A stretch of 64,000 nucleotides of DNA from contig JBGAIQ010000009.1 in NCBI GenBank assembly GCA_044225365.1, forward strand, positions 96,462-160,461, given 5' to 3'. Shown one piece after another: positions 14,597 through 64,000 of the stretch. How positions within the stretch are numbered: the stretch's first letter is position 1; every line of letters begins with the position of its first letter. The stretch comes from Planctomycetota bacterium. GTDB lineage: Bacteria > Planctomycetota > B15-G4 > JADJEK01. The notes under the pieces were generated by a model. It did not search any database, was not told where the DNA came from, and saw only the letters and a program-made list of their open reading frames with translations. The translations under genes were made by a program, and so were the position numbers.

Positions 14597-14965
14597 CTAG
14601 AACGGCCGGTGGCGCGATTCGACGGCGTAGAGCTTCGAGTAGGCCTCGAGGAGTTGCCGCGAGCGCTCGTACGATTCCGATTCGTCGGCGGCGTCCGCCT
14701 CGGGCTTCAGCTTCGCGTCGTTGCGGAAGATCTCGAGCAAGGCCTCGTAACGCTCATGAGCGGCGAGCATCGAGCTGATGTTCGTGGCCTGATCGTGGCG
14801 GGCGACGTCGTCGAGGACGTTGATCGCTTCCTCGGCGGCGATATCGAGCGCCTCTTCCAGGCGATTCCAGCGCTTGTGACCTTCGGTCTGCGTATCGATC
14901 CGCTTCCGAGTCTCCTCGACTCGCGCAGCCACTTCGGAAGCGATCGCCTTCGGGTCGAACATCAC
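14597..14965 (-). CDS. hypothetical protein (122 aa, acidic, helical), co-transcribed downstream of rbfA
   Basis: Clean non-Arg-rich ORF. Its start overlaps the rbfA stop in an ATGA junction (14962..14965). No recognisable domain. Confidence 0.6.
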   Translation of the reverse strand: MMFDPKAIASEVAARVEETRKRIDTQTEGHKRWNRLEEALDIAAEEAINVLDDVARHDQATNISSMLAAHERYEALLEIFRNDAKLKPEADAADESESYERSRQLLEAYSKLYAVESRHRPF

Positions 14966-15411
14966 TCGTCCTCGTCCGGCTCCGATTCGTGCGGGGCCGC
15001 TTTATCCTCGGTCGGCTCGGGCGTCGCCTCGGGAGCTTCGGACTCGGGCAACTCTCCGCGGGCGCGGCGCTCCGCGTCGAGGTCCTTCAGGAGGTGGTCG
15101 ACGCGCATCGAGCCATCGATCGAATCGTCGTACTGGAAGATCAGGTGCGGAACGGTGCGGGTGCGCAGGACCTTTCCGAGCGTGTGCTGGATGAACCCGC
15201 GGGCTTCGTCGAGAGCGTGCTTCGTCTTGCTCTTGTCGCCCTCGCTGCCGAGCACGGAGTAGAAGACCTCGCAGCGCGACAGATCGCGCGCGAGCTTCAC
15301 GCGCGTGATCGTCGTGAACGCGATGCGCGGATCCTGCAATTCGAAGAGCACGATCTGCGCGACGCGCTCGCGGATCCGCTCTGCCAGTTTCGAGTCAGCG
15401 TTCCAGCCCAC
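14962..15411 (-). CDS. rbfA: ribosome-binding factor A
   Basis: RbfA signature ERVAQIVLFELQDPRIAFTTITRVKLARDLSRCEVFYSV. Classic position after infB. Acidic C-terminal tail. Confidence 0.9.
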   Translation of the reverse strand: MGWNADSKLAERIRERVAQIVLFELQDPRIAFTTITRVKLARDLSRCEVFYSVLGSEGDKSKTKHALDEARGFIQHTLGKVLRTRTVPHLIFQYDDSIDGSMRVDHLLKDLDAERRARGELPESEAPEATPEPTEDKAAPHESEPDEDE

Positions 15412-15420
15412 GTCGCGCCT

Positions 15421-15711
15421 TCATTCGATCGATTGAATGTTCCAGTCGAGCAGCTCCGCCTCGGGATGTACCCGAAGCTGCTGCAGGATCGCGTCGAGTT
15501 CGCCGCGAACGTATCCGCTGTCGGAGCCGACCGCCGCGAACCCCAGGACGATCGACTGCCAGAGATCCTGGTCGTCGACCTCCGCCACCGACACGTTGAA
15601 GCGCGCGCGGATGCGGTCCTTGATGCTCCGCAGCACCTTGCGCTTCTCCTTCAAGGAGTGCGAGGACCGCAGCCGCATTCTCACTTCGAGAACGGAGGCT
15701 TCGAGCGCCAC
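15421..15711 (-). CDS. DUF503 (YlxP-like) protein
   Basis: SHSLKEKRKVLRSIKDRIRARFNVSVAEVDDQDLW matches the DUF503 family that characteristically sits between infB and rbfA. Confidence 0.85.
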   Translation of the reverse strand: MALEASVLEVRMRLRSSHSLKEKRKVLRSIKDRIRARFNVSVAEVDDQDLWQSIVLGFAAVGSDSGYVRGELDAILQQLRVHPEAELLDWNIQSIE

Positions 15712-15723
15712 GAGTACCTTCGA

Positions 15724-18700: not shown

Positions 18701-18789
18701 TTGCGCGCCTTGAGGCCGAGCTCCTTCGCGAGAGCGAGCAGGAGCTTGCTCTCGGCGCCGATTTCCTTGGCCAATTCGTGAAGTCTCAT
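15724..18789 (-). CDS. infB: translation initiation factor IF-2
   Basis: IF2_N ([26 protein letters not shown]). Long Pro/Ala-rich linker. GTPase motifs [22 protein letters not shown]-terminal domains. Start set at [11 protein letters not shown] (18789); an alternative ATG at 18837 would overlap the nusA stop. Confidence 0.95.
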
Positions 18790-18833
18790 CGTGTGATCAC
18801 CGCGTACGTCGCGACCTCGGAGGTCGGCGACGC

Positions 18834-20090
18834 TCACGCGCCTCCTGTCGAGGCGTCGCCAGCGCTTGCGTTCGCGTCCGGTTTGGCCGGGGATTCCGCG
18901 GACGCCGAACCGCTCGTCGCGGAATCGGGCGCCTCGGACTTCGATTCCTTGTCCTCACCGCGCGCGGCGGAGAGTTCAGCGCGGAGCCGGCGTTCGAACT
19001 CGTCGGCGCCGACGGGGCTCGCGGGGGTCGTCGAGGACGACGACTCCGGCGAAGCGTTGCCCGGCGCGACGCCGCCGGTGAGCAGCGCTTCGCGCGCCTT
19101 CTCGACCTCGGCATCGGCCGCACTGCCACGCGGCTCGTCGTACGCAGCCTGCGTCGGGCTCTTGATCTTGATGTCGTAGCCGGTGAGACGCGAGGCGAGT
19201 CGCACGTTCTGGCCCTTGCGACCGATCGCGAGCGAGAGCTGGTCGTCGTTCACGAGCACGTGAGCGATCTGGTTGGCGTCGTCGAGCTCGATCGAGTTGA
19301 TCGTCGCTGGCTTGAGCGCCTGCTGGATGAACTCTTCGGTGTCGTCGCTCCAACGGATGATGTCGATCTTCTCGCCGTTCAACTCGTCGGTGATCGCCTT
19401 GATGCGACTGCCGCGAATGCCGACGCAGGCGCCGATGCAGTCGACGCGCGAATCGATCGAATTGACCGCGATCTTGGTGCGGAAGCCCGGCTCGCGTGCC
19501 ACCGCTCGGATCTCGATCACGCGATCGGAGATCTCCGGCACTTCGAGCTCGAAGAGCTTGAGGACGAGCTCCGGTGCCGCGCGCGAGAGCATGATCTTGA
19601 CCTTCGGGCCGACCTTCTTGACGTCGTACACGATGGCCTTGATGCGGTCGCCCGGGTTGTAGTTCTCGGTGCGCACCTTCTCGTGCTTCGGGACGATGCC
19701 CTCGGCACGACCCAGGTTGACGATGATGTTGCCGAGCTCGATGCGCTGTACCGCACCGGACACGATCGTGTTGACCTTGTGCTCGTAGTCGCCGTAGATG
19801 ACGTCGCGTTCGGCGTCGCGGATTCGCTGGATGATGACCTGCTTCGCCGTCTGCGCGGCGATGCGGCCAAGCTCGGTCATGTTGATGCCTTCGGCTTCGA
19901 ACTCGCCGTCCCAGACATCGACCTTGCCGGATTCACGATCGATCTCGACGGCAAGGCCTTCGCGCTCGCCGTAGCGCTTCTTGACGGCGGTCAGCAACGC
20001 GCTCTCGATCGCTTCGAACAGGATCTCTTTGTCGATATCCTTGTCGCGATGGATGGCGTCGACCAGTCGAATGAGCTCTTCGCCGTTCAT
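18834..20090 (-). CDS. nusA: transcription termination/antitermination factor NusA
   Basis: N-terminal MNGEELIRLVDAIHRDKDIDKEILFEAIESAL, then S1 and two KH domains (IGACVGIRGSRIKAI, IGRKGQNVRLASRLTG), plus an acidic C-terminal extension. The track ORF start (20351) adds 87 junk residues; ATG at 20090 chosen. Confidence 0.95.
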   Translation of the reverse strand: MNGEELIRLVDAIHRDKDIDKEILFEAIESALLTAVKKRYGEREGLAVEIDRESGKVDVWDGEFEAEGINMTELGRIAAQTAKQVIIQRIRDAERDVIYGDYEHKVNTIVSGAVQRIELGNIIVNLGRAEGIVPKHEKVRTENYNPGDRIKAIVYDVKKVGPKVKIMLSRAAPELVLKLFELEVPEISDRVIEIRAVAREPGFRTKIAVNSIDSRVDCIGACVGIRGSRIKAITDELNGEKIDIIRWSDDTEEFIQQALKPATINSIELDDANQIAHVLVNDDQLSLAIGRKGQNVRLASRLTGYDIKIKSPTQAAYDEPRGSAADAEVEKAREALLTGGVAPGNASPESSSSTTPASPVGADEFERRLRAELSAARGEDKESKSEAPDSATSGSASAESPAKPDANASAGDASTGGA

Positions 20091-50194: not shown

Positions 50195-52166
<1,972 letters not shown>

Positions 52167-52167
<1 letters not shown>

Positions 52168-52754
52168 TACGACAGCGCGGGCCGCGAGAGGATCCCGGCC
52201 TCGATCTCGGCGACGAGCGCCGACGAACGCAAGCGCGTCACGATCGCGTAGGCGAATTCGAACGCCGTTCCCGGCGCCTGGCTGGTCAGGACATCGCCGT
52301 CGCAGACGACGCGTTCGCCCGCGTCGACCGCAACGCCAGCCGCCCTCAATTCATCCCGCACCGCGGGATGGCTCGTCACCCGGCGTCCGTGAAGGAGACC
52401 GGCGCGGAGGAGGACGATCGGCGCGGCGCAGATGGCGGCGACGAGCTTGCCGGCCGCCGCATGGTTGCGCAGCAGAGCGAGCACACGCTCGTCCTCGCGC
52501 ATCGCCTTCGCACCCGGAGCGCCGCCCGGCACCACGACGGCGTCGAAGAGCGGCGTGGCGTCCACTGTGCGGGCCAGGAGTTCGTCGAGCGTGATGTCGG
52601 GAACGAGGACGACGCCGCGCGAAGCGCGAACCGCGCCGGGATGGAGCCCTGCCACTGTGACGTCGATCGTCGCGCGACGCAATACGTCGATCACGGTGAC
52701 GGCTTCGATCTCCTCGGAGCCGTCTGCGATCAGAACGAGGGCGCGCGGATTCAC
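52167..52754 (-). CDS. DJ-1/PfpI family protein (YajL/ThiJ-like)
   Basis: ALVLIADGSEEIE...VVPGG...KLVAAICAAPIVL nucleophile-elbow Cys. ~195 aa. Confidence 0.85.
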
Positions 52755-52767
52755 GCGAAGGACGCGA

Positions 52768-54633
52768 TCAGAACGGCAGCGTGAGCTCGAGCATCAGCGC
52801 CGTTCGATTCTCCGGCGCCAATCCGCGCGCGCCGCCCAGGGCGTTCGCCGCGTTCGACCGTGTCGCACCCTCGCCGCTGCGCACCATCTTCTCGAGCGCA
52901 CGGAGCGTATCCGGGTTGCCCGCGTTCTTCGCGAGGATGCCCCGCAGGGCGTACGCCGCGGCGACGTGCGCCTCGGGGGACGCCGCCGCATCGCGCAAGA
53001 GCGCGAGCGCCGGGGCTTCGCCGTCGGCATGCCCGAGCTTGGAGAGCGCCACCATGGCCGGAACGCGGACCACGTCGTCGCGCTCGATCGCGGCGATCAA
53101 TGCGCGGCCCGCGGGCGCCAACGCGCCGCCGTCCATCGCCGCGAGAGCGAGCGCCGCCCGCCGCGAGAATTGCTCGGCCTCCATGCGTTCATCGTTGAGC
53201 GCGGCCTTCTCGAAGGCGGCGTCGTAGGCAGGCTTCAGGATCGCCCCGGACTTGATCGGTGCGGGCACGATCGCCGCGACCTTGTCGCCGAACAGGCTCT
53301 GCATGCGATCGCGATCGGCTTCGTCGACGACGAGGATGACGGGCAACGTCGCGGTGCGGACGTCGCGCTTCAGACTCGCGATGATCTGGTCGGCCTTCAC
53401 GTCGGAGACCGTCGAGCGAATCACGACGGCGTCCTTGATCGGCGGCTCCTTCGCGCGGACGAGCCCCATCGCGCCGGTCTCGGCCGTGATGGCGACGACG
53501 CGAAGCGACTGCGTCGCCGCGACGATCGAGTTGCGCTCAGCGGCATCGGGATCGATCACGAGCACCTGGCGCGTCGCGCTCTCGGACACCGCGTCACCGA
53601 GCGTCGCGACGATCTGCGGCGTCGGCTGGCCGGCGAGAGACAGGGCCGCGAGATAGCGCAGTCGCTTGTCGCCGCTGTTCTGCGCGAGGTCACTCGCACC
53701 ATTCACGTTCTCGGCCTTCGGCGCTTCGACTGCGGGAACATCGATCTGCGCGCCACCGAGGCGGAGCAGATCCTCGAGACGCGGCAGCGCCTTGTCCCAG
53801 CCGGCCGGGCCGACGACATCGCCGCCGCCCCGAATCACCTTGTTCAGCGCTTCGTAGGCCTGCGTCAGCGTCGCCTGCGCGGCGAGATTGGCCGGATCGA
53901 GTCGGAGGGCCCACTCGGCGTACATCTTGGCGTTCGCGGCGTTCGCCAGATTCGGCGTCGCCTCGCGATCCATCACCCGATGACCATTCCAGAAGTAGAC
54001 GTGGACCTTGCCATCGGCGCCCGCCGGCTGAGCGCGGCCACCCGCAAGGCACTCGTTGGCGGCGGTGAGCAGAGCCCCCGCGGCGGAACCCCCGGCTCCG
54101 GGCGCCATCGCGGCGAGCGCCTTGCTGGCCTCGGAGCGGGCGATCGGGTCGGAGTCGTGCTGCGCGATCGCGCCGAGCGCGGCCGCGGCTTCGACCGCGT
54201 TGACCTGCCCGAGCGTGATCACGAGGTTGCGCCGCACCATCGCGTCCTTCGATTGCAGCCCAGCGATCATCGCCGCGACCGAGTCGCTGCCGAGTCGCTT
54301 GAGGGCCATCACCGCTTGAGCGCGGGCGTCGTTGTCGGCGTTCGAACCGATCCAGCGCAGGAGCGCAGCGACGCCGCGTCCTCCATACTGCTTGCCCAAG
54401 GTCTCGAGGGCCGCGCGACGCGCGTTCCATTGACCCGTCGCAGCGTCTTCCGCGAGTTTCGCGAGGTCGCCGTCGATCGGGGCATCCGTCCAGGAAATCG
54501 CCGCGACCGGCGCGGCGTCGCCGCCCTTCTTGTCCGCAGCATCCGCGGCAGCATCCTGCGCGAAGGCATTCGCCCCGGCGAGAAGTGCGACGGCGATCAG
54601 GGACGACAAAGCCTTGCGGGTGATCGGAACCAT
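52768..54633 (-). CDS. exported HEAT/PBS-lyase-repeat protein with an internal CheY-like pseudo-receiver segment
   Basis: Signal peptide MVPITRKALSSLIAVALLAGANAFAQD at 54633. Repeated HEAT-like units (ARAQAVMALKRLG, MVRRNLVITLGQV, VRVPAMVALSKLG, AAAYALRGI). Central VLVIDPDAAER...DAVVIRSTVSD...LPVILVVD resembles a receiver fold. Confidence 0.65.
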   Translation of the reverse strand: MVPITRKALSSLIAVALLAGANAFAQDAAADAADKKGGDAAPVAAISWTDAPIDGDLAKLAEDAATGQWNARRAALETLGKQYGGRGVAALLRWIGSNADNDARAQAVMALKRLGSDSVAAMIAGLQSKDAMVRRNLVITLGQVNAVEAAAALGAIAQHDSDPIARSEASKALAAMAPGAGGSAAGALLTAANECLAGGRAQPAGADGKVHVYFWNGHRVMDREATPNLANAANAKMYAEWALRLDPANLAAQATLTQAYEALNKVIRGGGDVVGPAGWDKALPRLEDLLRLGGAQIDVPAVEAPKAENVNGASDLAQNSGDKRLRYLAALSLAGQPTPQIVATLGDAVSESATRQVLVIDPDAAERNSIVAATQSLRVVAITAETGAMGLVRAKEPPIKDAVVIRSTVSDVKADQIIASLKRDVRTATLPVILVVDEADRDRMQSLFGDKVAAIVPAPIKSGAILKPAYDAAFEKAALNDERMEAEQFSRRAALALAAMDGGALAPAGRALIAAIERDDVVRVPAMVALSKLGHADGEAPALALLRDAAASPEAHVAAAYALRGILAKNAGNPDTLRALEKMVRSGEGATRSNAANALGGARGLAPENRTALMLELTLPF

Positions 54634-54930
54634 CCTGCGGACCTCCCAGACTGCGAAGTTCTGGACTGGCGTGGACCTCGCACGCGCGTTCGCAGCGAAC
54701 CCGGCACTTCCCGGATCCATCCGCCACGACTGCGCACGATGCGCGACATCGAATTCCGCACTCCAAATCACGATACGTGTTTCGGCGAATGCGGAAAGCG
54801 CGCGATTAGAGCGGTGACCTTGGAAACGATCAAGCGAAACCTCCTCGTGTCCGCCGTTTGGCGTGCGAGGCGACGCGCGCGTCGTCGTTTACCGTCCGGA
54901 TCGGCAGCGGCAACGAGGTGAACTCGGATT

Positions 54931-54990
54931 CTGGACCGCCGGGCTCTACCCGACATCGTATGGGAAATGCCGGGCAGAGCCCGGCGGTCC
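54931..54990. repeat. 60-bp near-perfect palindrome (20-bp arms GGACCGCCGGGCTCTACCCG, 1 mismatch, loop ~18-20 nt), REP/MITE-like element
   Basis: Arms are reverse complements (GGACCGCCGGGCTCTACCCG ... CGGGCAGAGCCCGGCGGTCC). Sits 25 bp downstream of the sodC stop. A homologous copy of the arm plus flanking CATC motif recurs at 60283. Confidence 0.5.
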
Positions 54991-55015
54991 AATTGCCCGG
55001 CGGCCCGACTTCCCC

Positions 55016-55573
55016 TCACTTCGCAGGATTCGCGATTCCGATCACGCCGGCCGCGATGCGTGCACCGGCGTTACCCGTCGGCTGCGTCTTGAAGTCGTCG
55101 GCGTCGGCGTGGACGATCATGCCGCGGCCGTAGATCGAGTTCGGGCCGGTGAGGCGAAGTTGCTTGTCGACGCGCGAGTACTTCGCCGTGCCATCGGCGC
55201 CCGCCTCGAGATTGCCGAGATCACCGGCGTGGCGCACGGCATCCTCGGGCGCGCCGTGATTCTGGGCGCCGGGATTGAAGTGGCCGCCGGTGCACTTGCC
55301 GTCGGCGCAATCGAGGTCGCCCCATTCGTGGACGTGGAACCCGTGCTTGCCGGGCTTCAGACCATGGATCTCGGCTTCGATGAGAACGCCAGCCTCGCCG
55401 GGTTGCTCGGTGAAGTGGATCGTTCCCGTGACTTCGCTCCCAGAGCGCGGCGACAACACGCAGATCGCGCGGGCAGCCGGCTTGCTGTCCTTCGTATCGG
55501 TTTGCGTCATCGCGATACCTGCAGCGAGGGCGAAACCGGCGACGAGACCGAAGAGCATCGACTTCGAATGCAT
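55016..55573 (-). CDS. sodC: Cu/Zn superoxide dismutase
   Basis: Signal peptide MHSKSMLFGLVAGFALAAG. Metal-ligand motifs GFHVHEWGD, GGHFNPG, HAGDLGN, GRGMIVHADADD. Start 55573 after trimming the track ORF. Confidence 0.9.
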   Translation of the reverse strand: MHSKSMLFGLVAGFALAAGIAMTQTDTKDSKPAARAICVLSPRSGSEVTGTIHFTEQPGEAGVLIEAEIHGLKPGKHGFHVHEWGDLDCADGKCTGGHFNPGAQNHGAPEDAVRHAGDLGNLEAGADGTAKYSRVDKQLRLTGPNSIYGRGMIVHADADDFKTQPTGNAGARIAAGVIGIANPAK

Positions 55574-55775
55574 GATCCTGATTCCTCTGTAGAGCGCGGC
55601 GAGCGCCGCGAATCGCGGAGCGTGCCCAAAAGTGTAGGAAGATCGCGGACGAATCGCGCTACAAGATGTCGCTCGGTCGCCCAATCGCTTCGATCGCGAA
55701 ACCGAGCCTCATCGCGGCGCGACGACTCGTCACGATAGCGCGGAAATCCAACCCTGACTCCACGGGAGATCCTCG

Positions 55776-57161
55776 ATGGCACCGGTCCTCCAGTTCCTCG
55801 GCGCCGCCGGTTGCGTGACGGGATCGAAGTACCTGCTGTACGCGAATGGTCAGGAGGTGCTCGTCGACGCCGGGCTCTTCCAGGGCGAGCGCGAGTTGCG
55901 CGAGCGCAACTGGGACCGCATGCCGCTCGATCCGAAGAAGATCGATGCGATCGTCCTCACCCATGGTCACATCGACCACGTGGGGTACCTGCCGCGCCTC
56001 GTGAAGTTCGGCTACCGGGGGCCCGTGATCTGCACCGAAGCGACGCGCGCGCTGCTCCAGATCCTGCTCCCCGACTCGGCGCGGATCCAGGAGGAAGAGG
56101 CCGAGTACGCCAACAAGAAAGGTTACTCGCGCCACAAGCCCGCACTGCCGCTGTACACCGAGGACGATGCGAACCGCGCGCTCGGCCTCGTTCGCACGAT
56201 GGACTATGGGAAGTCGTTCGAGGCAGCGCCTGGGATCACGGCGATCTTCCATCCCGCTGGACACATCGTCGGCTCAGCCTTCGTCGAGATGCGTGCAGAA
56301 GAGCGCACGATCCTCTTCTCCGGCGACATCGGCGGCTACGACTCCGAGTTCATGAAGCCACCCGCGCCGCTCCCCGCGGCGTTCGACTACTTGTTGGTCG
56401 AATCGACGTACGGCGGGCGCATCGAGGAGGAGCCGCCGATTGGCGATCAACTGGAGAAGCTCCTCGGTCCCGTCCTCCGCGCGGGCGGAGTCGTCGTGAT
56501 CCCTGCATTCGCCGTCGGCCGTACCACGATCGTGCTCTACCACCTGCGCAAACTGATGGAATGCGGCAAGCTTCCGAACGTGAAGGTCTTCGTCGACAGC
56601 CCGATGGCGACCGATGCCGTCGAGATCTACCAGAAGTTCTCGTCCGAGCTCAATCTGCGCCCCGAAGAGCTCCGCGACGACGACCGCTGCGCGATCCGCA
56701 CCCAGCAGGTGCGTCTCGTCCGCGATCGGGAGGGCTCGAAACTCATCAACAAGGAGCCCGGTCCCGCGATCATCGTCTCGGCGAACGGCATGGCGTCCGC
56801 CGGCCGCGTGCTCCATCATCTGCGGCATCGTCTTCCCGATCCGAAGAACCTCGTCCTCCTGGTCGGGTATCAGGCCGAAGGAACGCGTGGACGTCAGCTC
56901 GCGCAGGGCGCGAAGGAAGTGAAGTTGCTCGGCGACTACATTCCCGTTCGCGCGAAAGTCGCGTCGATCCGTGGGCTCTCCGCGCATGGCGACTGCGGCG
57001 AGATCGTGCGGTGGCTGAAGACGGCGCAGAGCCGTCCGCGGATGACGTTCCTCGTCCACGGCGAAACCGACGCCCTGAGAGCGATGGGCAAGAGCCTCGG
57101 GGACGAACTCGGCTGGGCGAGCCACGCCCCGCAATATCTAGAGAAGGTTCCCCTGGATTGA
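55776..57161 (+). CDS. MBL-fold metallo-hydrolase of the beta-CASP RNA-metabolising family (RNase J/CPSF-like)
   Basis: HGHIDHVGYLP (HxHxDH). beta-CASP motifs (ESTYGG, VHGE...). 461 aa. Confidence 0.9.
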   Translation: MAPVLQFLGAAGCVTGSKYLLYANGQEVLVDAGLFQGERELRERNWDRMPLDPKKIDAIVLTHGHIDHVGYLPRLVKFGYRGPVICTEATRALLQILLPDSARIQEEEAEYANKKGYSRHKPALPLYTEDDANRALGLVRTMDYGKSFEAAPGITAIFHPAGHIVGSAFVEMRAEERTILFSGDIGGYDSEFMKPPAPLPAAFDYLLVESTYGGRIEEEPPIGDQLEKLLGPVLRAGGVVVIPAFAVGRTTIVLYHLRKLMECGKLPNVKVFVDSPMATDAVEIYQKFSSELNLRPEELRDDDRCAIRTQQVRLVRDREGSKLINKEPGPAIIVSANGMASAGRVLHHLRHRLPDPKNLVLLVGYQAEGTRGRQLAQGAKEVKLLGDYIPVRAKVASIRGLSAHGDCGEIVRWLKTAQSRPRMTFLVHGETDALRAMGKSLGDELGWASHAPQYLEKVPLD

Positions 57162-57180
57162 TCGCGCGCGTCGAAAACGA

Positions 57181-57217
57181 AACCGGCCGGTCCGCGCTTC
57201 TTGCGAACCGGCCGGTT
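57181..57217. terminator. inverted repeat between convergent genes (possible bidirectional terminator)
   Basis: AACCGGCCGG (57181-57190) and CCGGCCGGTT (57208-57217) are perfect reverse complements separated by 17 nt. Located in the 82-bp gap between the MBL RNase gene and the convergent dehydrogenase gene. Confidence 0.4.
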
Positions 57218-57243
57218 CCTCGTCTCACGTCACAGCTCTTCGA

Positions 57244-58809
57244 TCAGGGCTGCAGATCGACGCGGATGCCGTTGGACAATCCGACTCCGCCGGACGCGCC
57301 GGGATCGTCGATCGCCCACTGGCTGTAGAACGACACCGGGCCGCCGCCGCCCGCGACGGCGGGGATGTTGATCTCACCGTTCGCGTCGGTGAAGAGCGGA
57401 ACCGTGAGCACGATCGGGAAGCCGACCGTCAGCGTGCCGCCGAAGAACGGCGTCGCGCCCTGAGTGAACGAGAGGAAGAGCAGCGTCGGACGGCTCGGGG
57501 GACCATAGAGGAGCTGGTAGTCCGCCGTCTGACCCGTGCCCATCTGACCGCATGCGAACCAGTACGGCGTGCGACCGTTGCCGCCCACCTTGCCGCCGCC
57601 GAGATCCGCCATCGCCGTGACGGTCGGAACGATCTTGTAGAGTTCGCCACCCGTCTGATCGACGATCAGGATCTCGCCGCAGGCGTCGCGCCCGAAGCTC
57701 ACCGGATTGTTGATCGCGAGTGCGCCAGCGGGATCGAGTTCCGCCGTGCGATCGGTGAGGTTGCTCACCGCGCCGCCGACGATCTTGAATGACTGGATCT
57801 TGCCCGTGCAGTAGTCCGCGAAGAAGTACGTTCCGGCGAGATCCGGGATCGCGCAGCCGCGGTACACGACGCCGCCCGTGATCGAGCACGCGCCGCCGGT
57901 GTGCGAGTAGGTCAGGACAGGATACGTGAAGCTGGGGTCATTGCACAGGGGCGCCGACTGACAGGCCGCGAGGCCCGTGCAGTTGTTGCCTTCCATCACG
58001 CGCCAGCCGAAGTTGCGACCGCCCGTCGTACCCGACGCGACCCAGTCGACTTCCTCGATCAGGTTCTGGCCGACGTCCGCGATGAAGAGATCACCCGTCG
58101 CCGGATCGAAGTCCCAGCGCCACGGATTGCGCAGGCCGTAGTTGTAGATCAGCGGGTTGAAGGCCGTGTTGCCGACGAACGGATTCGTCGCTGGCGCCGA
58201 GGCTGGAACCGTGCTGACGTCGAGTCGCAGCATCTTGCCGAGCAGCGACATCTTGTTCTGCGCATTGCACGGCGGATCGTTGCCCGAACCGCCGTCGCCC
58301 TGACCCGAGTACAGGTAGCCATCGGGTCCGAACTGGAGGAGGCCACCGTTGTGGTTGGTGTTCGTCGGGTGCGGGATCGTCAGCATCGTCGTCGCGGAAC
58401 TGGCGTCCGCGACGTCGTTGACCATCGGATCGCCATTCACGTGATACCGGCGGATGTTGATCGTTCCGCCGGTGGCCGTGAAGTAGACGTAGAAGAGACC
58501 ACTCACTTCGTAGTTCGGGTCGAACGCCATCGAGAGCAGACCCTGCTCATTGCCACCTGCCATGCCCGACACGGTGACGAACGGCGCCGCGAGGAGCACG
58601 CCATCCTTAAGGATCTCGATGCGGCCCGTGTGCTGTTCGATCACGAAGATGCGATGCTTGTCACCTGGGGGCGAGCCCGCCCACACCGGCGCGGTGAATC
58701 CGCCTTGCAGCAGCACCGTCTTGAGAGGGGTCTGGGAGTGAAGGGTCGTGGCCATGAGCGCGCTGAGCGCGATGGCCGCGGTCAACGGACCGCGTTTCTG
58801 AGACAGCAT
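57244..58809 (-). CDS. exported PQQ-dependent soluble sugar (glucose/sorbosone) dehydrogenase-family beta-propeller protein
   Basis: Signal peptide MLSQKRGPLTAAIALSALMATTL. GSDH-family motifs (HNGGLLQFGPDGYLY, GDGGSG, NYGLRNPWRWDFD, NFGWRVMEG). Confidence 0.85.
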   Translation of the reverse strand: MLSQKRGPLTAAIALSALMATTLHSQTPLKTVLLQGGFTAPVWAGSPPGDKHRIFVIEQHTGRIEILKDGVLLAAPFVTVSGMAGGNEQGLLSMAFDPNYEVSGLFYVYFTATGGTINIRRYHVNGDPMVNDVADASSATTMLTIPHPTNTNHNGGLLQFGPDGYLYSGQGDGGSGNDPPCNAQNKMSLLGKMLRLDVSTVPASAPATNPFVGNTAFNPLIYNYGLRNPWRWDFDPATGDLFIADVGQNLIEEVDWVASGTTGGRNFGWRVMEGNNCTGLAACQSAPLCNDPSFTYPVLTYSHTGGACSITGGVVYRGCAIPDLAGTYFFADYCTGKIQSFKIVGGAVSNLTDRTAELDPAGALAINNPVSFGRDACGEILIVDQTGGELYKIVPTVTAMADLGGGKVGGNGRTPYWFACGQMGTGQTADYQLLYGPPSRPTLLFLSFTQGATPFFGGTLTVGFPIVLTVPLFTDANGEINIPAVAGGGGPVSFYSQWAIDDPGASGGVGLSNGIRVDLQP

Positions 58810-58981
58810 TCTTCTGTGCTCCTGGGATTCTGGTGGGGCTTCCGGGAATCGAGTTTCGTGGCTTGGCGTGAACCGTGAACGACTCGGGGCAGGTTCGCGC
58901 TGGAGAGAGGCTTGACTCGACCGGAGAGTCTACGTCGCCGCAGCTCTTCGGTCAACGTGACGTGGTACGCGCGCAGCTCGC

Positions 58982-60271
58982 GTGGGAAACGCAAGAATTC
59001 CGCATGACGGCGCGGCTCCAACCGCCGATGGCCAACCGCCGATCGCTCCTTATGATGCTCTCCCCCTAACGGAGCCCCGCGTGGACGATCTGCTGCGCTA
59101 TCGCGCCGAATTCCCCATCCTCGAGAAGTGCACCCATTTGATCTCGCATTCGCTCGGCGCGATGCCACGCGGCGTGTTCGATCGCATGCGCGACTACGCC
59201 GAGCTGTGGAACACCCGCGGGATCCGCGCCTGGGAAGAAGGCTGGTGGGACATGCCGCTCGCGGTCGGCGACCTGCTCGCGCCGATCCTCGGCCTCGGAT
59301 CCGACAAGGGTTCGATCGTGATGCATCAGAACGTCTCGGTCGCGATGTCCCTCATCCTCTCGTGCTTCGACATCGGCAAGCCACGGAACAAGATCGTCTA
59401 CTCCGACATGAATTTCCCGTCCGTGATGTACGTGAACGAAGCGCACAAGCGCCTCGGCGCGGAGATCCAGATGGTGAAGTCGGACGACGGCATCGGCGTC
59501 GACCTCGAGAAGCTGCTCGCCGCGATCGACGAACGCACATTGCTCGTGCCGATCTCCCACGTGCTGTTCCGTTCGGCGTTCATCCAGGACGCCGCAGCGA
59601 TCACGAAGCGCGCCCACGAAGTCGGCGCGATGGTCGTGCTCGACTGTTATCAATCGGCCGGCTGCGTCCCGATCGAGCTGAAGAAATGGAACGTCGACTT
59701 CGCCGTCGGCGGCAGCGTGAAGTGGCTCTGCGGCGGGCCGGGCGCGGGCTACCTCTACGTCCGCGAGGATCTGCGCGCGAAGCTCGAGCCGAAGATGACG
59801 GGCTGGGCCGCGCACGAGTCGCCGTTCGCGTTCGAGATCGGGCCGATCCACTACGCCTCGAGCATGCGCAGGTTCCTCCATGGCTCCCCCGCCATCCCGG
59901 CGCTCTACGCCGCGAAGACCGGCTACGAGATCGTCGGCAAGATCGGGATCGAGAAGATCCGTGCCAACTCGATGCGCCAGACCGCGCGCATGATCGCCAA
60001 GGCCGAAGACCTCGGGTTCACGGTGAAGTCCCCGAAGGATCCCGCACGCCGCGGCGGCGCGATCGTCGTCGACGTCCCGCACGGCAAGGCCGTCTGCCGC
60101 GAACTGAATCGCCGCGAGATCCTTTGTGACTACCGTCCGGGCGCTGGGATCCGCATGTCCGCGCACTTCTACAACACCGACGAAGAGATCGACCGCGCGA
60201 TCGCGGAGTGCCGCGCCATCCTCGAGTCGAAGGCTTACGAGAAGTTCCTGGACGCGAAAACCACCTATTGA
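58982..60271 (+). CDS. kynU: kynureninase
   Basis: PLP-fold class V motifs CTHLISHSLGAMP and VDFAVGGSVKWLCGGPGAGYLYV. C-terminal HFYNTDEEIDRA. The start could alternatively be the in-frame GTG near 59081. Confidence 0.9.
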   Translation: MGNARIPHDGAAPTADGQPPIAPYDALPLTEPRVDDLLRYRAEFPILEKCTHLISHSLGAMPRGVFDRMRDYAELWNTRGIRAWEEGWWDMPLAVGDLLAPILGLGSDKGSIVMHQNVSVAMSLILSCFDIGKPRNKIVYSDMNFPSVMYVNEAHKRLGAEIQMVKSDDGIGVDLEKLLAAIDERTLLVPISHVLFRSAFIQDAAAITKRAHEVGAMVVLDCYQSAGCVPIELKKWNVDFAVGGSVKWLCGGPGAGYLYVREDLRAKLEPKMTGWAAHESPFAFEIGPIHYASSMRRFLHGSPAIPALYAAKTGYEIVGKIGIEKIRANSMRQTARMIAKAEDLGFTVKSPKDPARRGGAIVVDVPHGKAVCRELNRREILCDYRPGAGIRMSAHFYNTDEEIDRAIAECRAILESKAYEKFLDAKTTY

Positions 60272-60282
60272 CCGCTCTGTCG

Positions 60283-60340
60283 GACCGCCGGGCTCTGCCC
60301 GGCATCTCGTGAAGGAACGGCGGGCGGATGCCGGCGTTTC
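60283..60340. repeat. second, degenerate copy of the GGACCGCCGGGCTCTGCCCGGCATC palindromic repeat family
   Basis: Sequence TCGGACCGCCGGGCTCTGCCCGGCATCTCGTG matches arm 1 and flank of the 54931 element. A weaker partner arm (GATGCCGGCG) lies ~25 nt downstream. It lies just after the kynureninase stop. Confidence 0.35.
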
Positions 60341-60402
60341 GATCGAGGCAGATCTTCCGTCACCACCTCGCGCGAAACGCGTCTCGACCATGGAGAGAAC
60401 CA

Positions 60403-61309
60403 TGGCGAGCGACGCGACGACCGACCACGATTTCGACGGCTTCTGGAAGGAACTCCTCGATGAGTTCCTGCCGGAGTTCCTCGCGTTCTTCGTGCCGGAT
60501 CTGCTTGGCGTGATCGACCTCTCACAGCCGATCGTCTCGCTCGAGAAGGAACTCCATGAACTGTTCCCCGAGGACCGCTCGGGCCGTGGGTTCGTCGACA
60601 AGCTGTTCAAGGTTGGATTACGCGATGGCGGGTCCGCCCGACTCCTCCTGCACATCGATGCACAAGGCGATCCCGAGGCGAGTTTCCCCGAGCGCATGTT
60701 TCGCTATCGCTATCGCCTGATCGACAAGTACCACCTGCCGATCTACTCCATCGCCGTCCTCGCCGATCGTGATCCGAACTGTTCCGGTTTCGGACGATCA
60801 AGCTGCTCGACTTCGCGGACCGCGTCGCCGAGCTCGAACGCAGCGAGAATCCCGTCGCGCTCTTGGCTCTCGCTCACCTGCGAACGCAGGCGACCCGCCC
60901 CGACCGTCGGCGGTTAGAATGGAAGAAGACGCTCCTTCGACTCGTGGTCGAGCGCGGCTTCCCGCGCCAGCGCATGATCCGAATGCTGCGGCTCGTCGAC
61001 TGGCTGATGACCCTGCCGCCCGACTTGAAACTGGAGTTCCGAAACGCCGTGAAAGAGATCGCCGAGGAGAAGACGATGCCGATCCTGATGGACATTGAGA
61101 TCGAGGCCATGGCCAGGGGTGCTCTGGGCGCGAAGCGGCACGACATCCGGCAGGTCCTTCGTGCACGGTTCGGCGAGTTGCCGCAGCGGATCGATCTCGC
61201 GCTCGAGGCGTGTGTCGAAGTCTCCGTGCTCGATCGCCTCGTCGTCGCCGCGGCCCTCGCGAAGGATCTCGCGGACTTCGAGCGCCAACTCGCGATCAGT
61301 TCGATGTGA
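60403..61309 (+). pseudogene. Rpn/YhgA-like (PDDEXK_7, transposase_31-type) recombination-promoting nuclease gene, copy 1, frameshifted by a 46-bp internal deletion
   Basis: N-terminal half MASDATTDHDFDGFWKELLDEFLPEFLAFFVPDLL...LLLHIDAQGDPEASFPERMFRYRYRLIDKYHLPIYSIAVLADRDPN is typical of this family. The reading frame breaks at ~60786: relative to copy 2 the 46 nt GCGTCCCGATCGTTTCGAGCTGCGCTTCCACGACGATCTCGTTCTC are missing. The intact C-terminal half continues in another frame (60863..61309, ...TLPPDLKLEFRNAVKEIAEEKTMPILMDIEIEAMARG...). Confidence 0.7.
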
Positions 61310-61665
61310 GGCTTCGCCCGAAATTGCAATCAGGGTGACCTGGATGAGAGTCCACGATTGCCCCCGTTGGGAATACGGGCTTGAAGATTGCGCCGATCAC
61401 CCGCGATCCGCGATCCATGAGGCGGCTTCGTGATGGGACACGGGCGGCCGGCGCGCACGCTCGCGGAAACGTCGCCTCCCGAATTCTCGATCCACCTCCA
61501 CGATCGACGCCACACGCCTGCAATTGCGGCAATCGACCGTAGGTGCACGATCATCGGTGATCGGCGCGGTGTGCGGCTTGCACCCTCCGACACGCGCCCT
61601 TTCATTTCTCGATGCCTCTCCTTCACCGCTGCGCCTTTTCTGCGTCACGTCCCTGGAGAAAACCA

Positions 61666-62640
61666 TGGCGAGCGACGCGACGACCGACCACGACTTCGAC
61701 GGCTTCTGGAAGGAACTGCTCGATGAGTTCCTGCCGGAGTTCCTCGCGTTCTTCGTGCCGGATCTGCTCGAACTCATCGATCTCTCGCAGCCAATCGAGT
61801 CGCTCGACAAAGAGCTTCATGAGTTGTTCCCCGAGGACCGCTCGGGCCGTGGGTTCGTGGACAAGCTCTTCAAGGTTGGACTACGCGATGGAGGGTCCGC
61901 ACGACTCCTTCTGCACATCGACGCGCAAGGCGATCCCGAGGCGAGTTTTCCCGAGCGCATGTTTCGCTATCGCTATCGCCTGATCGACAAGTACCACCTG
62001 CCGATCTACTCCATCGCCGTCCTCGCCGATCGCGATCCGAACTGGCGTCCCGATCGTTTCGAGCTGCGCTTCCACGACGATCTCGTTCTCTTCCGGTTTC
62101 GGACGATCAAGCTGCTCGACTTCGCGGACCGCGTCGCCGAGCTCGAACGCAGCGAGAATCCCGTCGCGCTCTTGGCTCTCGCTCACCTGCGAACGCAGGC
62201 GACCCGCCCCGACCGTCGGCGGTTAGAATGGAAGACGGCCTGTTCGTCTCGCAGGGTCGAGCGCGGCTTCCCGCGGCAACGCACGATCCGAATGCTGCGG
62301 CCTGCCGACTGGCTGATGACCCGCCGCCTGACCTGAAACTGGAGTTCCGAAACGCCGGGAAGAGCTCGCTGAGGAGAAGACGATGCCGACCCCGCGACAC
62401 GAGATCGAGGCCATGCCGCAAGGGCGAGGCCAAGGGCAATTGCTTGGCGAGGCCAGGGGTGCTTTGGGCGCGAAGCGGCACGACGATCCGGCAGGTCCTT
62501 CAGGCACGGTTCGGTGAGCGCCGTAGTGATCGATCTCGGTACCGGACTCGTGTGTCGAATCTCGGTGCTCGATCGCCTCGTCGTCGCCGCAGCCCTCGCG
62601 AAGGATCTCGCGGACTTCTGGAGCGCCAACTGTTGATCAC
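61666..62640 (+). pseudogene. Rpn/YhgA-like recombination-promoting nuclease gene, copy 2 (tandem duplicate), 3' half degraded by multiple indels
   Basis: First ~230 codons near-identical to copy 1 and retaining the segment deleted there (NWRPDRFELRFHDDLVLFRFRTIKLLDFADRVAELERSENPVALLALAHL). After RRLEWK the frame collapses: several indels relative to copy 1, premature stop at 62336, and remaining homology scattered over other frames to ~62640. Confidence 0.7.
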
Positions 62641-62808
62641 CTCGATGTGAGGCTTCGCCCATTACGATGTGGCGAGCGCGCGCGCTCTTTGCTTCCAGCT
62701 TCCTGTTTCTACTTTCCATCACCCACGCTTCGATAGACTTCCGCGTCTTCATCGACGGGGTCGAACCGATGCCGGACTCGAATCGCGCAGAGACATTGTT
62801 CCTCGGTT

Positions 62809-64000
62809 GGCTGAACTGCGTCGACGCCAGTATTGCATGGACATCGAACATGTCGCCGCGCGAATCCCGGAATGCGCCGAAGAACTGCGCCGACTGCACG
62901 CCAACTGGGTTCTCAACAAGGTCCTCGAGCAGCGGCTCGGCGTGCGCAACATCTCGTCGTTCTCCGATAGGTTGCGCGAAGTTCGGCTCCGGCGCCGACC
63001 CGGGCGTTGCGGCTCGACGACGACGCCACGACGACGGAAAGCGCGCTCCGCTTCGAGCGACGACTCCAGCTCGCCGAACTCCGCTCGCGCGGCCCCTCGT
63101 CTGGGCGCTACCGCCCTCGAGGGCGAAATCGCGCAAGGCGGCATGGGCATCCGTGACGCACGTGTTCGACAAGGACCTGCGCCACAACCTCGCCGATGAA
63201 GGTGATGCTCCACGAACACGAGGCGAAGCAGGGCAGGCTCTCGCTTCCTCGAAGAAGCGCAGGTCACGGCCAGCTCGATGCCCGGCATCGTTCCGGTGCA
63301 CGAACTCGGCATCGACGAGCACGGCAAGGTCGTCTTCACGATGAAACTGGTGAAGGGGAAGAACTCGCCGACGTGTTCGAGATGACGGTGACCGGTGAAG
63401 AAGGTTGAACGTCACCGGCGCGCTGGATGTGCTCCAGCGGGTCGCAGGCGATGGCCTCGCACGAGAAAAAGGTGATCCACCGCGACATCAAGCCCGCGAA
63501 CATCATGGTCGGCCGGCACGGCGAGTGTACGTCATGGATTGGAAACCGTCGCGAGTCCTCGAAGAAGGACTTGAAGGACGTGCGCCTACGGACCGCGCAA
63601 TCGATCGTCGACACCGAGCGCCGCGAGAAAGGCCGGCGATGCGCCGGACTCGCCGCTGCTCACGTGGACGGCGACGCGGTCGGCACGCCGTCCTACATGC
63701 CGCTCGAGCAGGCCGAAGGCGATCTCGATTCGATCGGGCCGCAGTCGGACGTGTATGCGGTCGTGCGATGCTCTACCACCTGCTCGCGGGCATTCCGCCC
63801 TACGTCGAGCCGGGGACGTCGCCGAGCGGCGCGGATCCTCGATCGAGTGAAGCGAGCGCCGCCCGCCGCGATCCGCTCGCTGGCGAAGTCCGCGCCCATC
63901 GAGCTGATCATGATCTGCAGGAAGGCAATGGGCAGGAAAGCCGGAGAGCCTACGCCTCGATGGTCGATCTCGGCGACGACCTGCGTGCCTACCTCGAGCG
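62809..64000 (+). pseudogene. Ser/Thr protein kinase pseudogene (multiple frameshifts), continues beyond window end
   Basis: Kinase subdomain remnants are scattered across all three plus frames: EGEIAQGGMG (G-loop); HVFDKDLRHNLA / MKVMLHEHE (VAIK region); PGIVPVHELGIDEHGKVVFTMKLVKGK (hinge); HEKKVIHRDIKPANIMVGRHGE (catalytic loop); GTPSYMPLEQAEG, SDVYAV (activation/substrate loops); APIELIMICRKAMGRKAGE (subdomain XI). No single frame is open for more than ~70 codons. Confidence 0.6.

What the first reader, a model, noticed from the sequence alone, without database searches (positions are those of the whole stretch)
60403..62650. Tandem duplication of an Rpn/YhgA-like PDDEXK nuclease gene with each copy killed by a different lesion
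Copy 1 has an out-of-frame 46-bp deletion in the middle but an intact 3' half. Copy 2 retains that segment but has a shredded 3' half. Neither can make a full-length product, yet together they contain one complete gene's worth of information.
This is a clear snapshot of duplication followed by reciprocal decay, or of ongoing recombination between copies.
Rpn proteins promote RecA-independent recombination, which may itself explain the local instability (the adjacent kinase is also a pseudogene).
Basis: seen in the sequence. Interest (0 to 1): 0.55.

Follow-up and report, generated by a model that had tools for sequence, protein, structure and literature searches.

The report
Decayed tandem pair of Rpn nuclease genes
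Two side-by-side copies of an Rpn-type toxic nuclease/antitoxin gene in a Planctomycetota genome are each broken in a different way and have recently swapped sequence; this is a tidy example of a known kind of gene decay, not a new system.

Summary
Copy 1 (60402-61309) differs from an intact 317-codon gene only by a 46-bp frameshifting deletion after 60781. Copy 2 (61665-62650) keeps that segment, but its last third carries 5-6 frameshifts. Copy 1 plus the 46 bp, or copy 2's 5' part plus copy 1's 3' part, gives a clean 317-aa ORF.

The genes belong to a divergent branch of the Rpn/YhgA (PF04754 + DUF4351) family. They have the RpnA-type catalytic residues, a PD-(D/E)XK-like fold, a conserved internal start, and variable 4-aa repeats.

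The tandem pair is old. A related metagenome contig (L001) has the same layout with copy A intact. A roughly 240-nt tract that is nearly identical between the copies, and has copy 2's sequence type, surrounds the deletion, so the copies have recently undergone gene conversion.

Copy 2's 5' part is under strong purifying selection (dN/dS about 0.03), while its 3' part evolves neutrally. Copy 1 keeps an intact 77-codon RpnS-like (antitoxin) ORF.

The pair sits in a variable insertion spot right after a kynureninase gene. The downstream kinase is also shattered (11-14 frameshifts).

A local sequence-quality artefact is unlikely but not excluded. Verdict: a new member of a known kind, of modest interest.

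The parts
60402..61309 (+). Copy 1 (A-type) Rpn-like gene. It is intact except for one 46-bp frameshifting deletion.
   Evidence: It is 93% identical in protein to the intact ortholog P0001 once repaired.
60781..60782 (+). Junction of the 46-bp deletion. It removes codons 128-142, including the near-invariant W127-R128-P129 motif and core beta-strands.
   Evidence: There is at most 3 nt (CTG) of possible microhomology.
60402..60917 (+). Truncated product of copy 1: 127 native residues followed by 44 out-of-frame residues (171 aa).
   Evidence: This exact ORF is in the protein collection, from a 161,059-bp NCBI contig.
60687..60926 (+). Recent gene-conversion tract in copy 1 (the recipient). 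It is identical to copy 2 positions 61950-62235 apart from one mismatch (60770/62033) and the 46-bp gap.
   Evidence: permutation P=0.0013. The tract is 97% identical to L001 gene B but only 89% to L001 gene A, so its sequence is B-type.
61064..61078 (+). Internal Shine-Dalgarno-like GAGGAG, a 6-nt spacer, then ATG (61076). This is the putative internal translation start for an RpnS-like protein.
   Evidence: M241 is conserved in 56/63 family members and is V in 6. GAGGAG/AAGGAG plus ATG occurs in 14/14 loci that matched the motif. It is analogous to the RpnA K240/E241/M244 internal start.
61076..61309 (+). Intact 77-codon RpnS-like (DUF4351-type, putative antitoxin/oligomerisation) ORF inside copy 1.
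   Evidence: dN/dS against L001 gene A in this part is about 0.4.
61310..61664 (+). Spacer between the copies. It is not part of the repeat unit. It is homologous to the L001 spacer at about 75% column identity with several indels, and has conserved blocks at about 61410-61480.
61665..62650 (+). Copy 2 (B-type) Rpn-like gene: intact 5' part, degraded 3' third.
61665..62336 (+). Open 223-codon N-terminal (nuclease-domain) ORF of copy 2. It keeps the catalytic residues and the 46-bp segment (62045-62090). It is under purifying selection.
   Evidence: dN/dS is 0.029 against L001 gene B (18 synonymous, 2 nonsynonymous changes) and 0.054 against copy 1. It has no frameshift before 62326.
62236..62650 (+). 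Degraded 3' part of copy 2, with garbled blocks and 5-6 frameshifts (about 62326, 62361, 62488, 62531, 62567, 62623). Its RpnS-like ORF (ATG 62383) is cut to 44 codons.
   Evidence: Substitutions are even across codon positions, 18/20/23. Ts/Tv is 1.5.
62416..62451 (+). In-frame 36-nt length difference, equal to three 4-aa repeat units, in the variable G-x-x-x repeat linker. This is normal Rpn repeat variation, not a lesion.
   Evidence: L001 gene A has 12 nt more than copy 1 at the same place.
63067..63998 (+). Ser/Thr protein kinase remnant with its catalytic domain spread over all three frames (11-14 frameshifts, no in-frame stops). It runs off the window.
60272..60274 (.). Boundary of the variable region. 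Synteny with related contigs ends at the kynureninase stop codon.
   Evidence: L116 and L117 have an empty site. L115 carries a different Rpn gene plus a separate 84-aa DUF4351-like gene at the same spot.

Best explanation
This is a real, degenerating tandem pair of Rpn-family genes. Rpn genes encode a long PD-(D/E)XK nuclease form (RpnL, the toxin) and, from an internal start, a short C-terminal form (RpnS, the antitoxin). The pair sits in a variable insertion spot just downstream of a kynureninase gene in a Planctomycetota genome. It predates the split from a related lineage in which copy A is still intact (shown). In this genome the two copies exchanged sequence by gene conversion, with copy 2 donating about 240 nt to copy 1 (shown). 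Inside that converted tract copy 1 lost 46 bp, during or after the conversion (the timing is inferred). The deletion abolishes the long nuclease form of copy 1 but leaves its internal ribosome-binding site, ATG and 77-codon RpnS-like ORF intact (shown in sequence; expression is inferred). Copy 2 keeps a selectively constrained N-terminal nuclease-domain ORF of 223 codons. Its C-terminal third, including its own RpnS part, has drifted neutrally and collected 5-6 frameshifts, as has the kinase gene next to it (shown). How copy 2 came to be half intact is inferred. Either it has long existed as an N-terminal-only gene, or an unequal crossover in the conserved core recently fused a live 5' part to an older dead 3' remnant. 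Net result: the locus can no longer make any full-length RpnL. It is most likely an inactivated toxin/defence module that may still express an orphan antitoxin-like peptide and a truncated nuclease domain.
Against: The repaired protein itself matches no Pfam, NCBIfam, PADLOC or PDB sequence model, and the Foldseek hits are weak (E>=0.036). Frameshift density switches sharply from zero to about 1.5-2% at 62236 and stays similar across two unrelated genes up to the window end, with no nonsense codons. That pattern would also fit a low-quality sequence block. No reads were available, and no independent assembly covers 60.3-64 kb. The 3' half of the orthologous gene B in L001 is missing because the contig ends, so the age of copy 2's decay rests on rate arguments alone. 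Expression of the 77-aa ORF or of the 223-aa ORF is not shown.
Confidence: 0.62

Rival explanations
1. Technical artefact. The block from about 62236 to at least 64000 is poorly resolved sequence (for example an unpolished or low-coverage stretch), and/or the 46-bp deletion is a minor population variant picked up by the assembler. In the real genome copy 2 and the kinase, and perhaps copy 1, would be intact.
For: Frameshifts begin sharply right where the perfect inter-copy identity ends. Two unrelated genes show a similar indel density (5-6 in 300 nt and 11-14 in 930 nt). There are no in-frame stops, and amino-acid similarity after frame correction is high (276/314 to copy 1; about 57% to kinases). 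Copy 2's 5' part looks like a fully functional gene. Even substitution across codon positions would also be expected from errors.
Against: The 60 kb upstream has uninterrupted ORFs of up to 1602 aa. The window lies inside a 161-kb contig. An independent Logan assembly of run SRR28480385 is 100% identical over 7746 bp of the window, so the reads are accurate. Differences are strongly clustered into garbled blocks between long perfect stretches, rather than scattered, and are not tied to homopolymers. Ts/Tv of 1.5 equals that of the real comparisons. The only consistent path through the two-copy repeat graph is the assembled order (inference). A search with the stitched kinase found no intact version in the protein collection.
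Confidence: 0.15
2. A working split or switchable system. The truncated copy 2 nuclease domain and the copy 1 RpnS-like peptide act together in trans. Alternatively, copy 2 serves as a silent cassette, and gene conversion between the near-identical flanks (94 nt with one mismatch upstream, 145 nt exact downstream) can switch the toxic full-length gene in copy 1 off and on again.
For: Copy 2's N-terminal ORF has been under strong purifying selection while its 3' part decayed. Conversion from copy 2 to copy 1 has demonstrably occurred across the very segment that is now deleted. The RpnS-like ORF with its ribosome-binding site and ATG is intact. Natural split layouts (an N-domain gene plus a separate DUF4351 gene) exist, for example in L115 and rpnE-ypaA. 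RpnD lacking its tail keeps weak activity.
Against: In the published model RpnS acts through the C-terminal domain it shares with RpnL, with matched repeat number. Copy 2's product lacks that domain, so the peptide would have nothing to bind. The purifying-selection signal may simply predate a recent fusion to a dead 3' remnant. A one-off deletion is the simpler reading. No population data show both states. The adjacent dead kinase points to general neglect of the region.
Confidence: 0.08
3. Variant history for copy 2. The locus once held three or more tandem copies, and an unequal crossover within the 145-nt conserved core fused the live 5' part of copy B to the 3' part of an older, already dead copy next to the dead kinase. 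Both lesions would then be recent recombination products, and no truncated gene was ever under selection.
For: The switch from 100% identity to heavy divergence falls exactly at the end of the most conserved, recombination-active tract. Rpn arrays formed by tandem duplication are documented. This history explains a pristine 5' part next to an old 3' wreck without needing selection on a truncated protein.
Against: No remnant of a further copy exists in the window. The L001 contig shows only two copies as far as it reaches. This history cannot be told apart from long-term truncation with the data in hand.
Confidence: 0.15

Closest known systems
E. coli RpnA-RpnE (YhgA-like, PF04754) RpnL/RpnS gene-within-gene toxin-antitoxin and antiphage systems (Kingston et al. 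2017, PMC5350276; Zhong et al. 2023, PMC10400941)
   Same: N-terminal PD-(D/E)XK core with the same five signature residues at nearly the same spacing (D12/D66/D86/Q88/R98 against D11/D63/E82/Q84/R94). Helical C-terminal domain. Conserved internal Met preceded by codons that form a ribosome-binding site (M241 against M244 in RpnA). 12-nt (4-aa) repeat-number variation starting 12-14 residues after that Met. Occurrence as tandem arrays and at variable, horizontally exchanged sites.
   Different: Sequence similarity is too low for a direct PF04754 or NCBIfam hit. Position 86 is D here rather than the E found in >=90% of the family alignment A3 and at the equivalent RpnA residue E82. No full-length gene survives at this locus, so nothing about toxicity, antitoxin action or defence can be assumed to operate now. 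No experimental data exist for this subfamily.
Cyanobacterial plasmid and chromosomal 'Rpn family recombination-promoting nuclease/putative transposase' and 'DUF4351 domain-containing protein' genes (e.g. Nostoc sp. PCC 7120 plasmids NC_003240 and NC_003267)
   Same: Full-length homology (37-40% identity, up to 96% coverage, E about 1e-57), the same length (about 300-330 aa) and the same two-domain layout. They are multi-copy in their genomes.
   Different: Those copies are intact single genes. The window copies are a decayed tandem pair in a Planctomycetota genome.
Stand-alone RpnS genes next to rpn genes
   Same: A C-terminal DUF4351-type peptide encoded separately from a nuclease-domain ORF. 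L115 has a 243-aa PF04754 gene, an in-frame stop, then an 84-aa gene with KGRT-EGEE-KGRQ-EGEA repeats, at the very same genomic site after the kynureninase gene.
   Different: In the window the separation results from a frameshifting deletion within copy 1. The surviving nuclease-domain ORF belongs to the other copy and lacks the domain through which RpnS is thought to act.

Membership tests
Rpn / YhgA-like family (PF04754 Transposase_31, COG5464) | Significant match to the PF04754 / Rpn-family sequence profile | tested here: inconclusive
   The repaired window protein has no Pfam or NCBIfam hit at E<=0.01. 28 of 63 aligned homologs do hit PF04754, with a best E of 1.6e-5. Homologs 37-40% identical (E about 1e-57) are named 'Rpn family' by PGAP. 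Membership is therefore by transitive homology.
Rpn / YhgA-like family (PF04754 Transposase_31, COG5464) | PD-(D/E)XK nuclease fold in the N-terminal core | tested here: met
Rpn / YhgA-like family (PF04754 Transposase_31, COG5464) | RpnA active-site signature D11, D63, E82, Q84 (Q in place of the usual K), R94 | tested here: met
   In the alignment D66, Q88 and R98 are invariant and D12 and E86 are >=90% conserved. The window has D86. Spacing is 54/20/2/10 against 52/19/2/10 in RpnA.
RpnL/RpnS gene-within-gene toxin-antitoxin | C-terminal helical RpnS/DUF4351 domain | tested here: met
   14/63 homologs hit PF14261, with a best E of 7e-12. The model shows helices 243-316 after a flexible linker. 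The window protein itself falls below the threshold.
RpnL/RpnS gene-within-gene toxin-antitoxin | Internal translation start with a ribosome-binding site just upstream of the C-terminal domain | tested here: met
   This is a sequence signature only. M241 is in 56/63 members and V in 6. GAGGAG/AAGGAG, a 6-7 nt spacer and ATG occur in 14/14 loci, including copy 1 at 61064-61078. Actual initiation is not testable here.
RpnL/RpnS gene-within-gene toxin-antitoxin | Variable number of 4-aa (12-nt) repeats beginning 8-20 residues after the RpnS start | tested here: met
   L001 gene A is copy 1 plus 12 nt, and copy 2 is copy 1 plus 36 nt, at the same point 12-14 residues after M241. The family alignment shows a variable (E/Q)G-x-x repeat block there, and 11/63 members hit the GxxxG-repeat model Yae1_N.
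RpnL/RpnS gene-within-gene toxin-antitoxin | RpnL is a toxic DNA endonuclease, RpnS binds and neutralises it, and the system protects against phage | not testable with these tools
PADLOC has no model that matches. No full-length RpnL is encoded at this locus.
RpnL/RpnS gene-within-gene toxin-antitoxin | Occurs in tandem arrays and at variable, horizontally exchanged sites without terminal inverted repeats or target-site duplications | tested here: met
   The tandem pair is shared with L001. The site after the kynureninase gene is empty in L116 and L117 and holds a different Rpn in L115. No flanking repeats of the unit were found.

The most novel reading that the evidence does not exclude
The pair works as a recombinational switch or repair cassette for a toxic defence gene. 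Copy 2 would be kept under selection as a promoter-proximal but C-terminally dead store of pristine nuclease-domain sequence. Gene conversion through the near-identical flanks (94 nt upstream with one mismatch, 145 nt exact downstream) would then reversibly knock out or restore the full-length RpnL in copy 1, while the RpnS antitoxin ORF stays on. That would amount to phase variation of a toxin-antitoxin defence system by intralocus gene conversion.
Probability: 0.06. Interest if true: 0.6.

Novelty: new member of a known kind. Interest (0 to 1): 0.3.

Why it matters
This locus extends the RpnL/RpnS gene-within-gene architecture to a very divergent subfamily found in Planctomycetota, Armatimonadota, Cyanobacteria and other phyla. 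That subfamily escapes direct Pfam detection, yet it has the catalytic signature, the conserved internal start and the 12-nt repeat variation. This supports the view that the intragenic antitoxin arrangement is ancient and general. The locus is also a clean natural example of three things: (i) loss of the toxin with retention of the antitoxin ORF, (ii) gene conversion between tandem rpn paralogs, and (iii) one insertion hotspot holding different Rpn genes in related genomes. None of this overturns current understanding. It is mostly useful as annotation guidance (these are pseudogenes, and the 36-nt difference is not a lesion) and as a candidate set for testing RpnS expression outside E. coli.

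Tried and rejected
- **Direct profile and sequence searches** with the repaired protein found nothing: Pfam and NCBIfam, PDB sequences as a single sequence and as a profile, and PADLOC.
- **Rfam** over the whole window gave 0 hits, and the sigma-70 promoter scan gave 0 sites. There is therefore no evidence for or against an internal promoter.
- **The search for the source genome or closer relatives** in genome contigs and metagenome contigs returned only hits at <=47% identity. Only L001 is close.
- **The search for an orthologous kinase**, meant to recover the missing 3' end of L001 gene B, found only paralogs at 47-49% identity.
- **Attempts to read beyond position 64000**, or to find an independent assembly of 60.3-64 kb by exact-protein look-up, failed. 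The source field of the listing of cluster members proved uninformative about Logan coverage, as the control showed.
- **A shared frameshift hotspot** at residues 121-141 in distant relatives (L019, L073, L082) was considered. Those breaks are unrelated single-base indels and too few to interpret.
- **Apparent in-frame stops** in a long minus-strand gene (14962-18954) turned out to be separate genes of an infB operon.
- **Diversity-generating retroelement and programmed frameshifting readings** were rejected. The differences are not adenine-specific, and the frame changes are many and uncompensated.
- **A mis-join of the two copies by the assembler** was rejected, because only the assembled order uses each unique segment once (inference).
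Full report
**Observation**

Two direct copies of a gene of about 950 nt lie on the + strand, 1263 nt apart at their 5' ends.
- Copy 1 runs from ATG 60402 to TGA 61309, and copy 2 from ATG 61665 to TGA 62650.
- Homology begins about 23 nt upstream of each ATG, including a GGAGA ribosome-binding site, and stops about 10 nt after each stop codon. The 355-nt spacer and the outer flanks are not repeated.
- Copy 1 lacks exactly 46 bp after 60781 (copy 2 positions 62045-62090). Restoring them gives a clean 317-codon ORF, and so does joining copy 2's 5' part to copy 1's 3' part.
- A frameshift-aware protein-to-DNA alignment finds 1 frameshift in copy 1 and 5-6 in copy 2, all between 62326 and 62623.
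The 36-nt 'insertion' in copy 2 is in frame and sits in a naturally length-variable repeat linker.

**What the gene is**

The repaired protein hits nothing in Pfam, NCBIfam, PADLOC or PDB sequences. It does have at least 89 full-length homologs of 300-330 aa. Several lines then place it in the Rpn family:
- 28 of 63 aligned homologs match PF04754 (YhgA-like Transposase_31) and 14 match PF14261 (DUF4351).
- Cyanobacterial plasmid homologs at 37-40% identity (E about 1e-57) are annotated by PGAP as 'Rpn family recombination-promoting nuclease/putative transposase' or 'DUF4351 domain-containing protein'.
- In the family alignment D66, Q88 and R98 are invariant, and D12 and E86 are nearly so; the window protein has D86. 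This reproduces the experimentally defined RpnA active site D11/D63/E82/Q84/R94 with almost the same spacing (PMC5350276).

**The Rpn toxin-antitoxin features**

Zhong et al. 2023 (PMC10400941) showed four things about rpn genes. They encode a toxic long form (RpnL) and, from an internal promoter and start, a short C-terminal antitoxin (RpnS, DUF4351). RpnS can also be a separate gene. The number of 4-aa repeats starting 8-20 residues after the RpnS start varies and sets L/S specificity. Tandem arrays arise by direct duplication.

All the sequence-level hallmarks are present here:
- Met241 lies in the flexible linker before the C-terminal helices. It is conserved in 56/63 members, and 6 of the other 7 have Val.
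- It is preceded by E-E-E-(K/R)-x, whose codons form GAGGAG/AAGGAG 6-7 nt upstream of the ATG in 14/14 loci examined. That includes copy 1, with GAGGAG at 61064-61069 and ATG at 61076.
- The variable (E/Q)G-x-x repeat block starts 12-14 residues later.
- L001 gene A has one more 12-nt unit than copy 1, and copy 2 has three more.

In copy 1 the resulting 77-codon RpnS-like ORF (61076-61309) is intact. In copy 2 the equivalent ORF (ATG 62383) is cut to 44 codons by a frameshift.

**History**

A 1723-bp metagenome contig (L001) from a related organism has the same layout:
- gene A, intact at 321 aa, 93% identical to repaired copy 1 and containing the 46-bp segment;
- a homologous spacer;
- gene B, intact for the 137 codons present before the contig ends.

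So the duplication predates the split of the two lineages, and the 46-bp deletion is specific to the window lineage.

A four-way alignment is a mosaic:
- In the first 150 nt copy 2 is 98% identical to L001 gene B, which reflects orthology.
- In columns 150-300 copy 1 is 97% identical to L001 gene A.
- From 60687 to 60926 (copy 2: 61950 to 62235) the two window copies differ at a single base, yet are only about 89% identical to gene A and about 97% identical to gene B.
- The run of identity is significant (permutation P=0.0013 within the 5' part, <1e-5 over the gene).

This is a recent gene-conversion tract with copy 2 as donor and copy 1 as recipient, and the 46-bp deletion lies inside it. The deletion therefore arose during or after that event, which is an inference. 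Microhomology at the junction is at most 3 nt.

**Selection**

- The 5' parts of both copies are under strong purifying selection. dN/dS is 0.105 for copy 1 against gene A, 0.029 for copy 2 against gene B (18 synonymous and 2 nonsynonymous changes), and 0.054 between the two window copies.
- Copy 1's 3' part is also constrained (dN/dS 0.20).
- Copy 2's 3' part has substitutions spread evenly over codon positions (18/20/23). It carries 51 lineage-specific changes in about 390 sites plus about 9 indel events.
- That divergence is of the same order as the divergence of the non-coding spacer between the two lineages (about 25%, with several indels).
- Copy 2 is therefore not simply dead. Its nuclease-domain ORF (223 codons, 61665-62336) has been conserved while its C-terminal third drifted. 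The alternative is that a live 5' part was recently fused by unequal crossover to an old dead 3' remnant. The two histories cannot be separated without the 3' end of L001 gene B.

**Context**

- The neighbouring genes are housekeeping genes (GSDH-like, beta-CASP, kynureninase). Their closest relatives are Planctomycetota.
- Synteny with three related contigs ends exactly at the kynureninase stop codon.
- Two of them (L116, L117) continue directly into an AMP-binding gene, which is an empty site.
- L115 instead carries a different, canonical Rpn gene (243 aa, PF04754) followed, after an in-frame stop, by a separate 84-aa DUF4351-like gene with KGRT-EGEE-KGRQ-EGEA repeats, plus about 4 kb of other genes.
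- The site is therefore a variable insertion hotspot that repeatedly acquires Rpn-type genes.
- Downstream of copy 2, a Ser/Thr kinase catalytic domain is spread over all three frames, with 11-14 frameshifts.

**Real or artefact?**

The frameshift-dense block begins abruptly at 62236 and continues to the window end. Indel density is similar in two unrelated genes and there are no nonsense codons. This would also fit locally poor sequence.

Several points argue against that:
- The 60 kb upstream is tiled by intact ORFs of up to 1602 aa.
- The window comes from a 161,059-bp NCBI contig.
- An independent Logan assembly of run SRR28480385 is 100% identical to 7746 bp of the window (51370-59115).
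- The differences are clustered in garbled blocks between perfect stretches of 15-27 nt and are not linked to homopolymers.
- Ts/Tv is 1.5, as in the comparisons between intact genes.

I could not obtain reads, or any independent assembly of 60.3-64 kb, so I leave about 15% for this rival.

**Mechanistic reading**

The locus is best seen as an inactivated Rpn toxin/defence module.
- No full-length RpnL can be made.
- Copy 1's truncated product (127 native residues) lacks the near-invariant WRP motif and core strands.
- Copy 2's product lacks the last helix of the N-domain and the whole C-terminal domain. In E. coli RpnD, a smaller tail truncation already reduces activity strongly.
- The RpnS-like ORF of copy 1 may still be expressed from its own start (inferred).
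- Loss of the toxin with retention of the antitoxin is the expected outcome for a gene whose long product is toxic. Zhong et al. report rapid selection of mutations that inactivate RpnL when RpnS is absent.

**Verdict**

The family assignment is supported through distant homology. This is a new member of a known kind, of modest interest.

Noticed in passing
window 63067-63998 (runs off the window end): A Ser/Thr protein kinase catalytic domain is shattered over all three forward frames, with 11-14 frameshifts, no in-frame stop, and about 57% identity to Planctomycetota kinases after frame correction. Only a 57-aa HRD-region piece scores as Pkinase in a single frame.
   Followed up: partly
window 54932-54991 and 60279-60343: A GC-rich palindromic (REP-like) element forms a strong hairpin at 54932-54991 (dG -49.7 kcal/mol, z -6.9). 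One arm, GGACCGCCGGGCTCT(A/G)CCCG, recurs as a degenerate hairpin (dG -39, z -2.3) right after the kynureninase stop, at the boundary of the variable region.
   Followed up: partly
L115 7696-8706 (JGI 3300083085, Ga0654611_0002866): At the same genomic site (after the kynureninase gene) a related genome carries a different, canonical Rpn gene (243 aa, PF04754, ExK motif). An in-frame stop and 24 nt separate it from an 84-aa DUF4351-like gene with four clear 4-aa repeats. This is a natural split of the nuclease domain and RpnS.
   Followed up: partly
L011 10001-10769, L019 10001-10850 (Gemmataceae MAG), L073, L082: Other members of this Rpn-like subfamily are also frame-broken by single-base indels. 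Three of the four breaks fall at residues 121-141, the same region as the 46-bp deletion in copy 1. It is unclear whether these are real or sequencing errors.
   Followed up: partly
window 61410-61480 (spacer between the copies) vs L001 1120-1190: Within an otherwise fast-diverging spacer (about 75% identity, several indels), two blocks are conserved between the lineages: GCGATCCATGAGGCGGCTTC and GCGCGCACGCTCG-GGAA. They could be a regulatory site for copy 2.
   Followed up: no
L119 (Logan SRR28480385_81205) = window 51370-59115; L110 (same run): The same strain was independently assembled from SRA run SRR28480385 (100% identity over 7746 bp). The same run also holds a 54%-identical intact member of the family (P0003, 330 aa) next to a radical-SAM/SPASM and glycosyltransferase gene cluster, on a different contig.
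   Followed up: partly
L001 1-46: Upstream of L001 gene A, the ribosome-binding region contains a 13-nt tandem duplication (GAGAAATCCCGGG GAGAAATCCCGGA) that is absent from both window copies.
   Followed up: no
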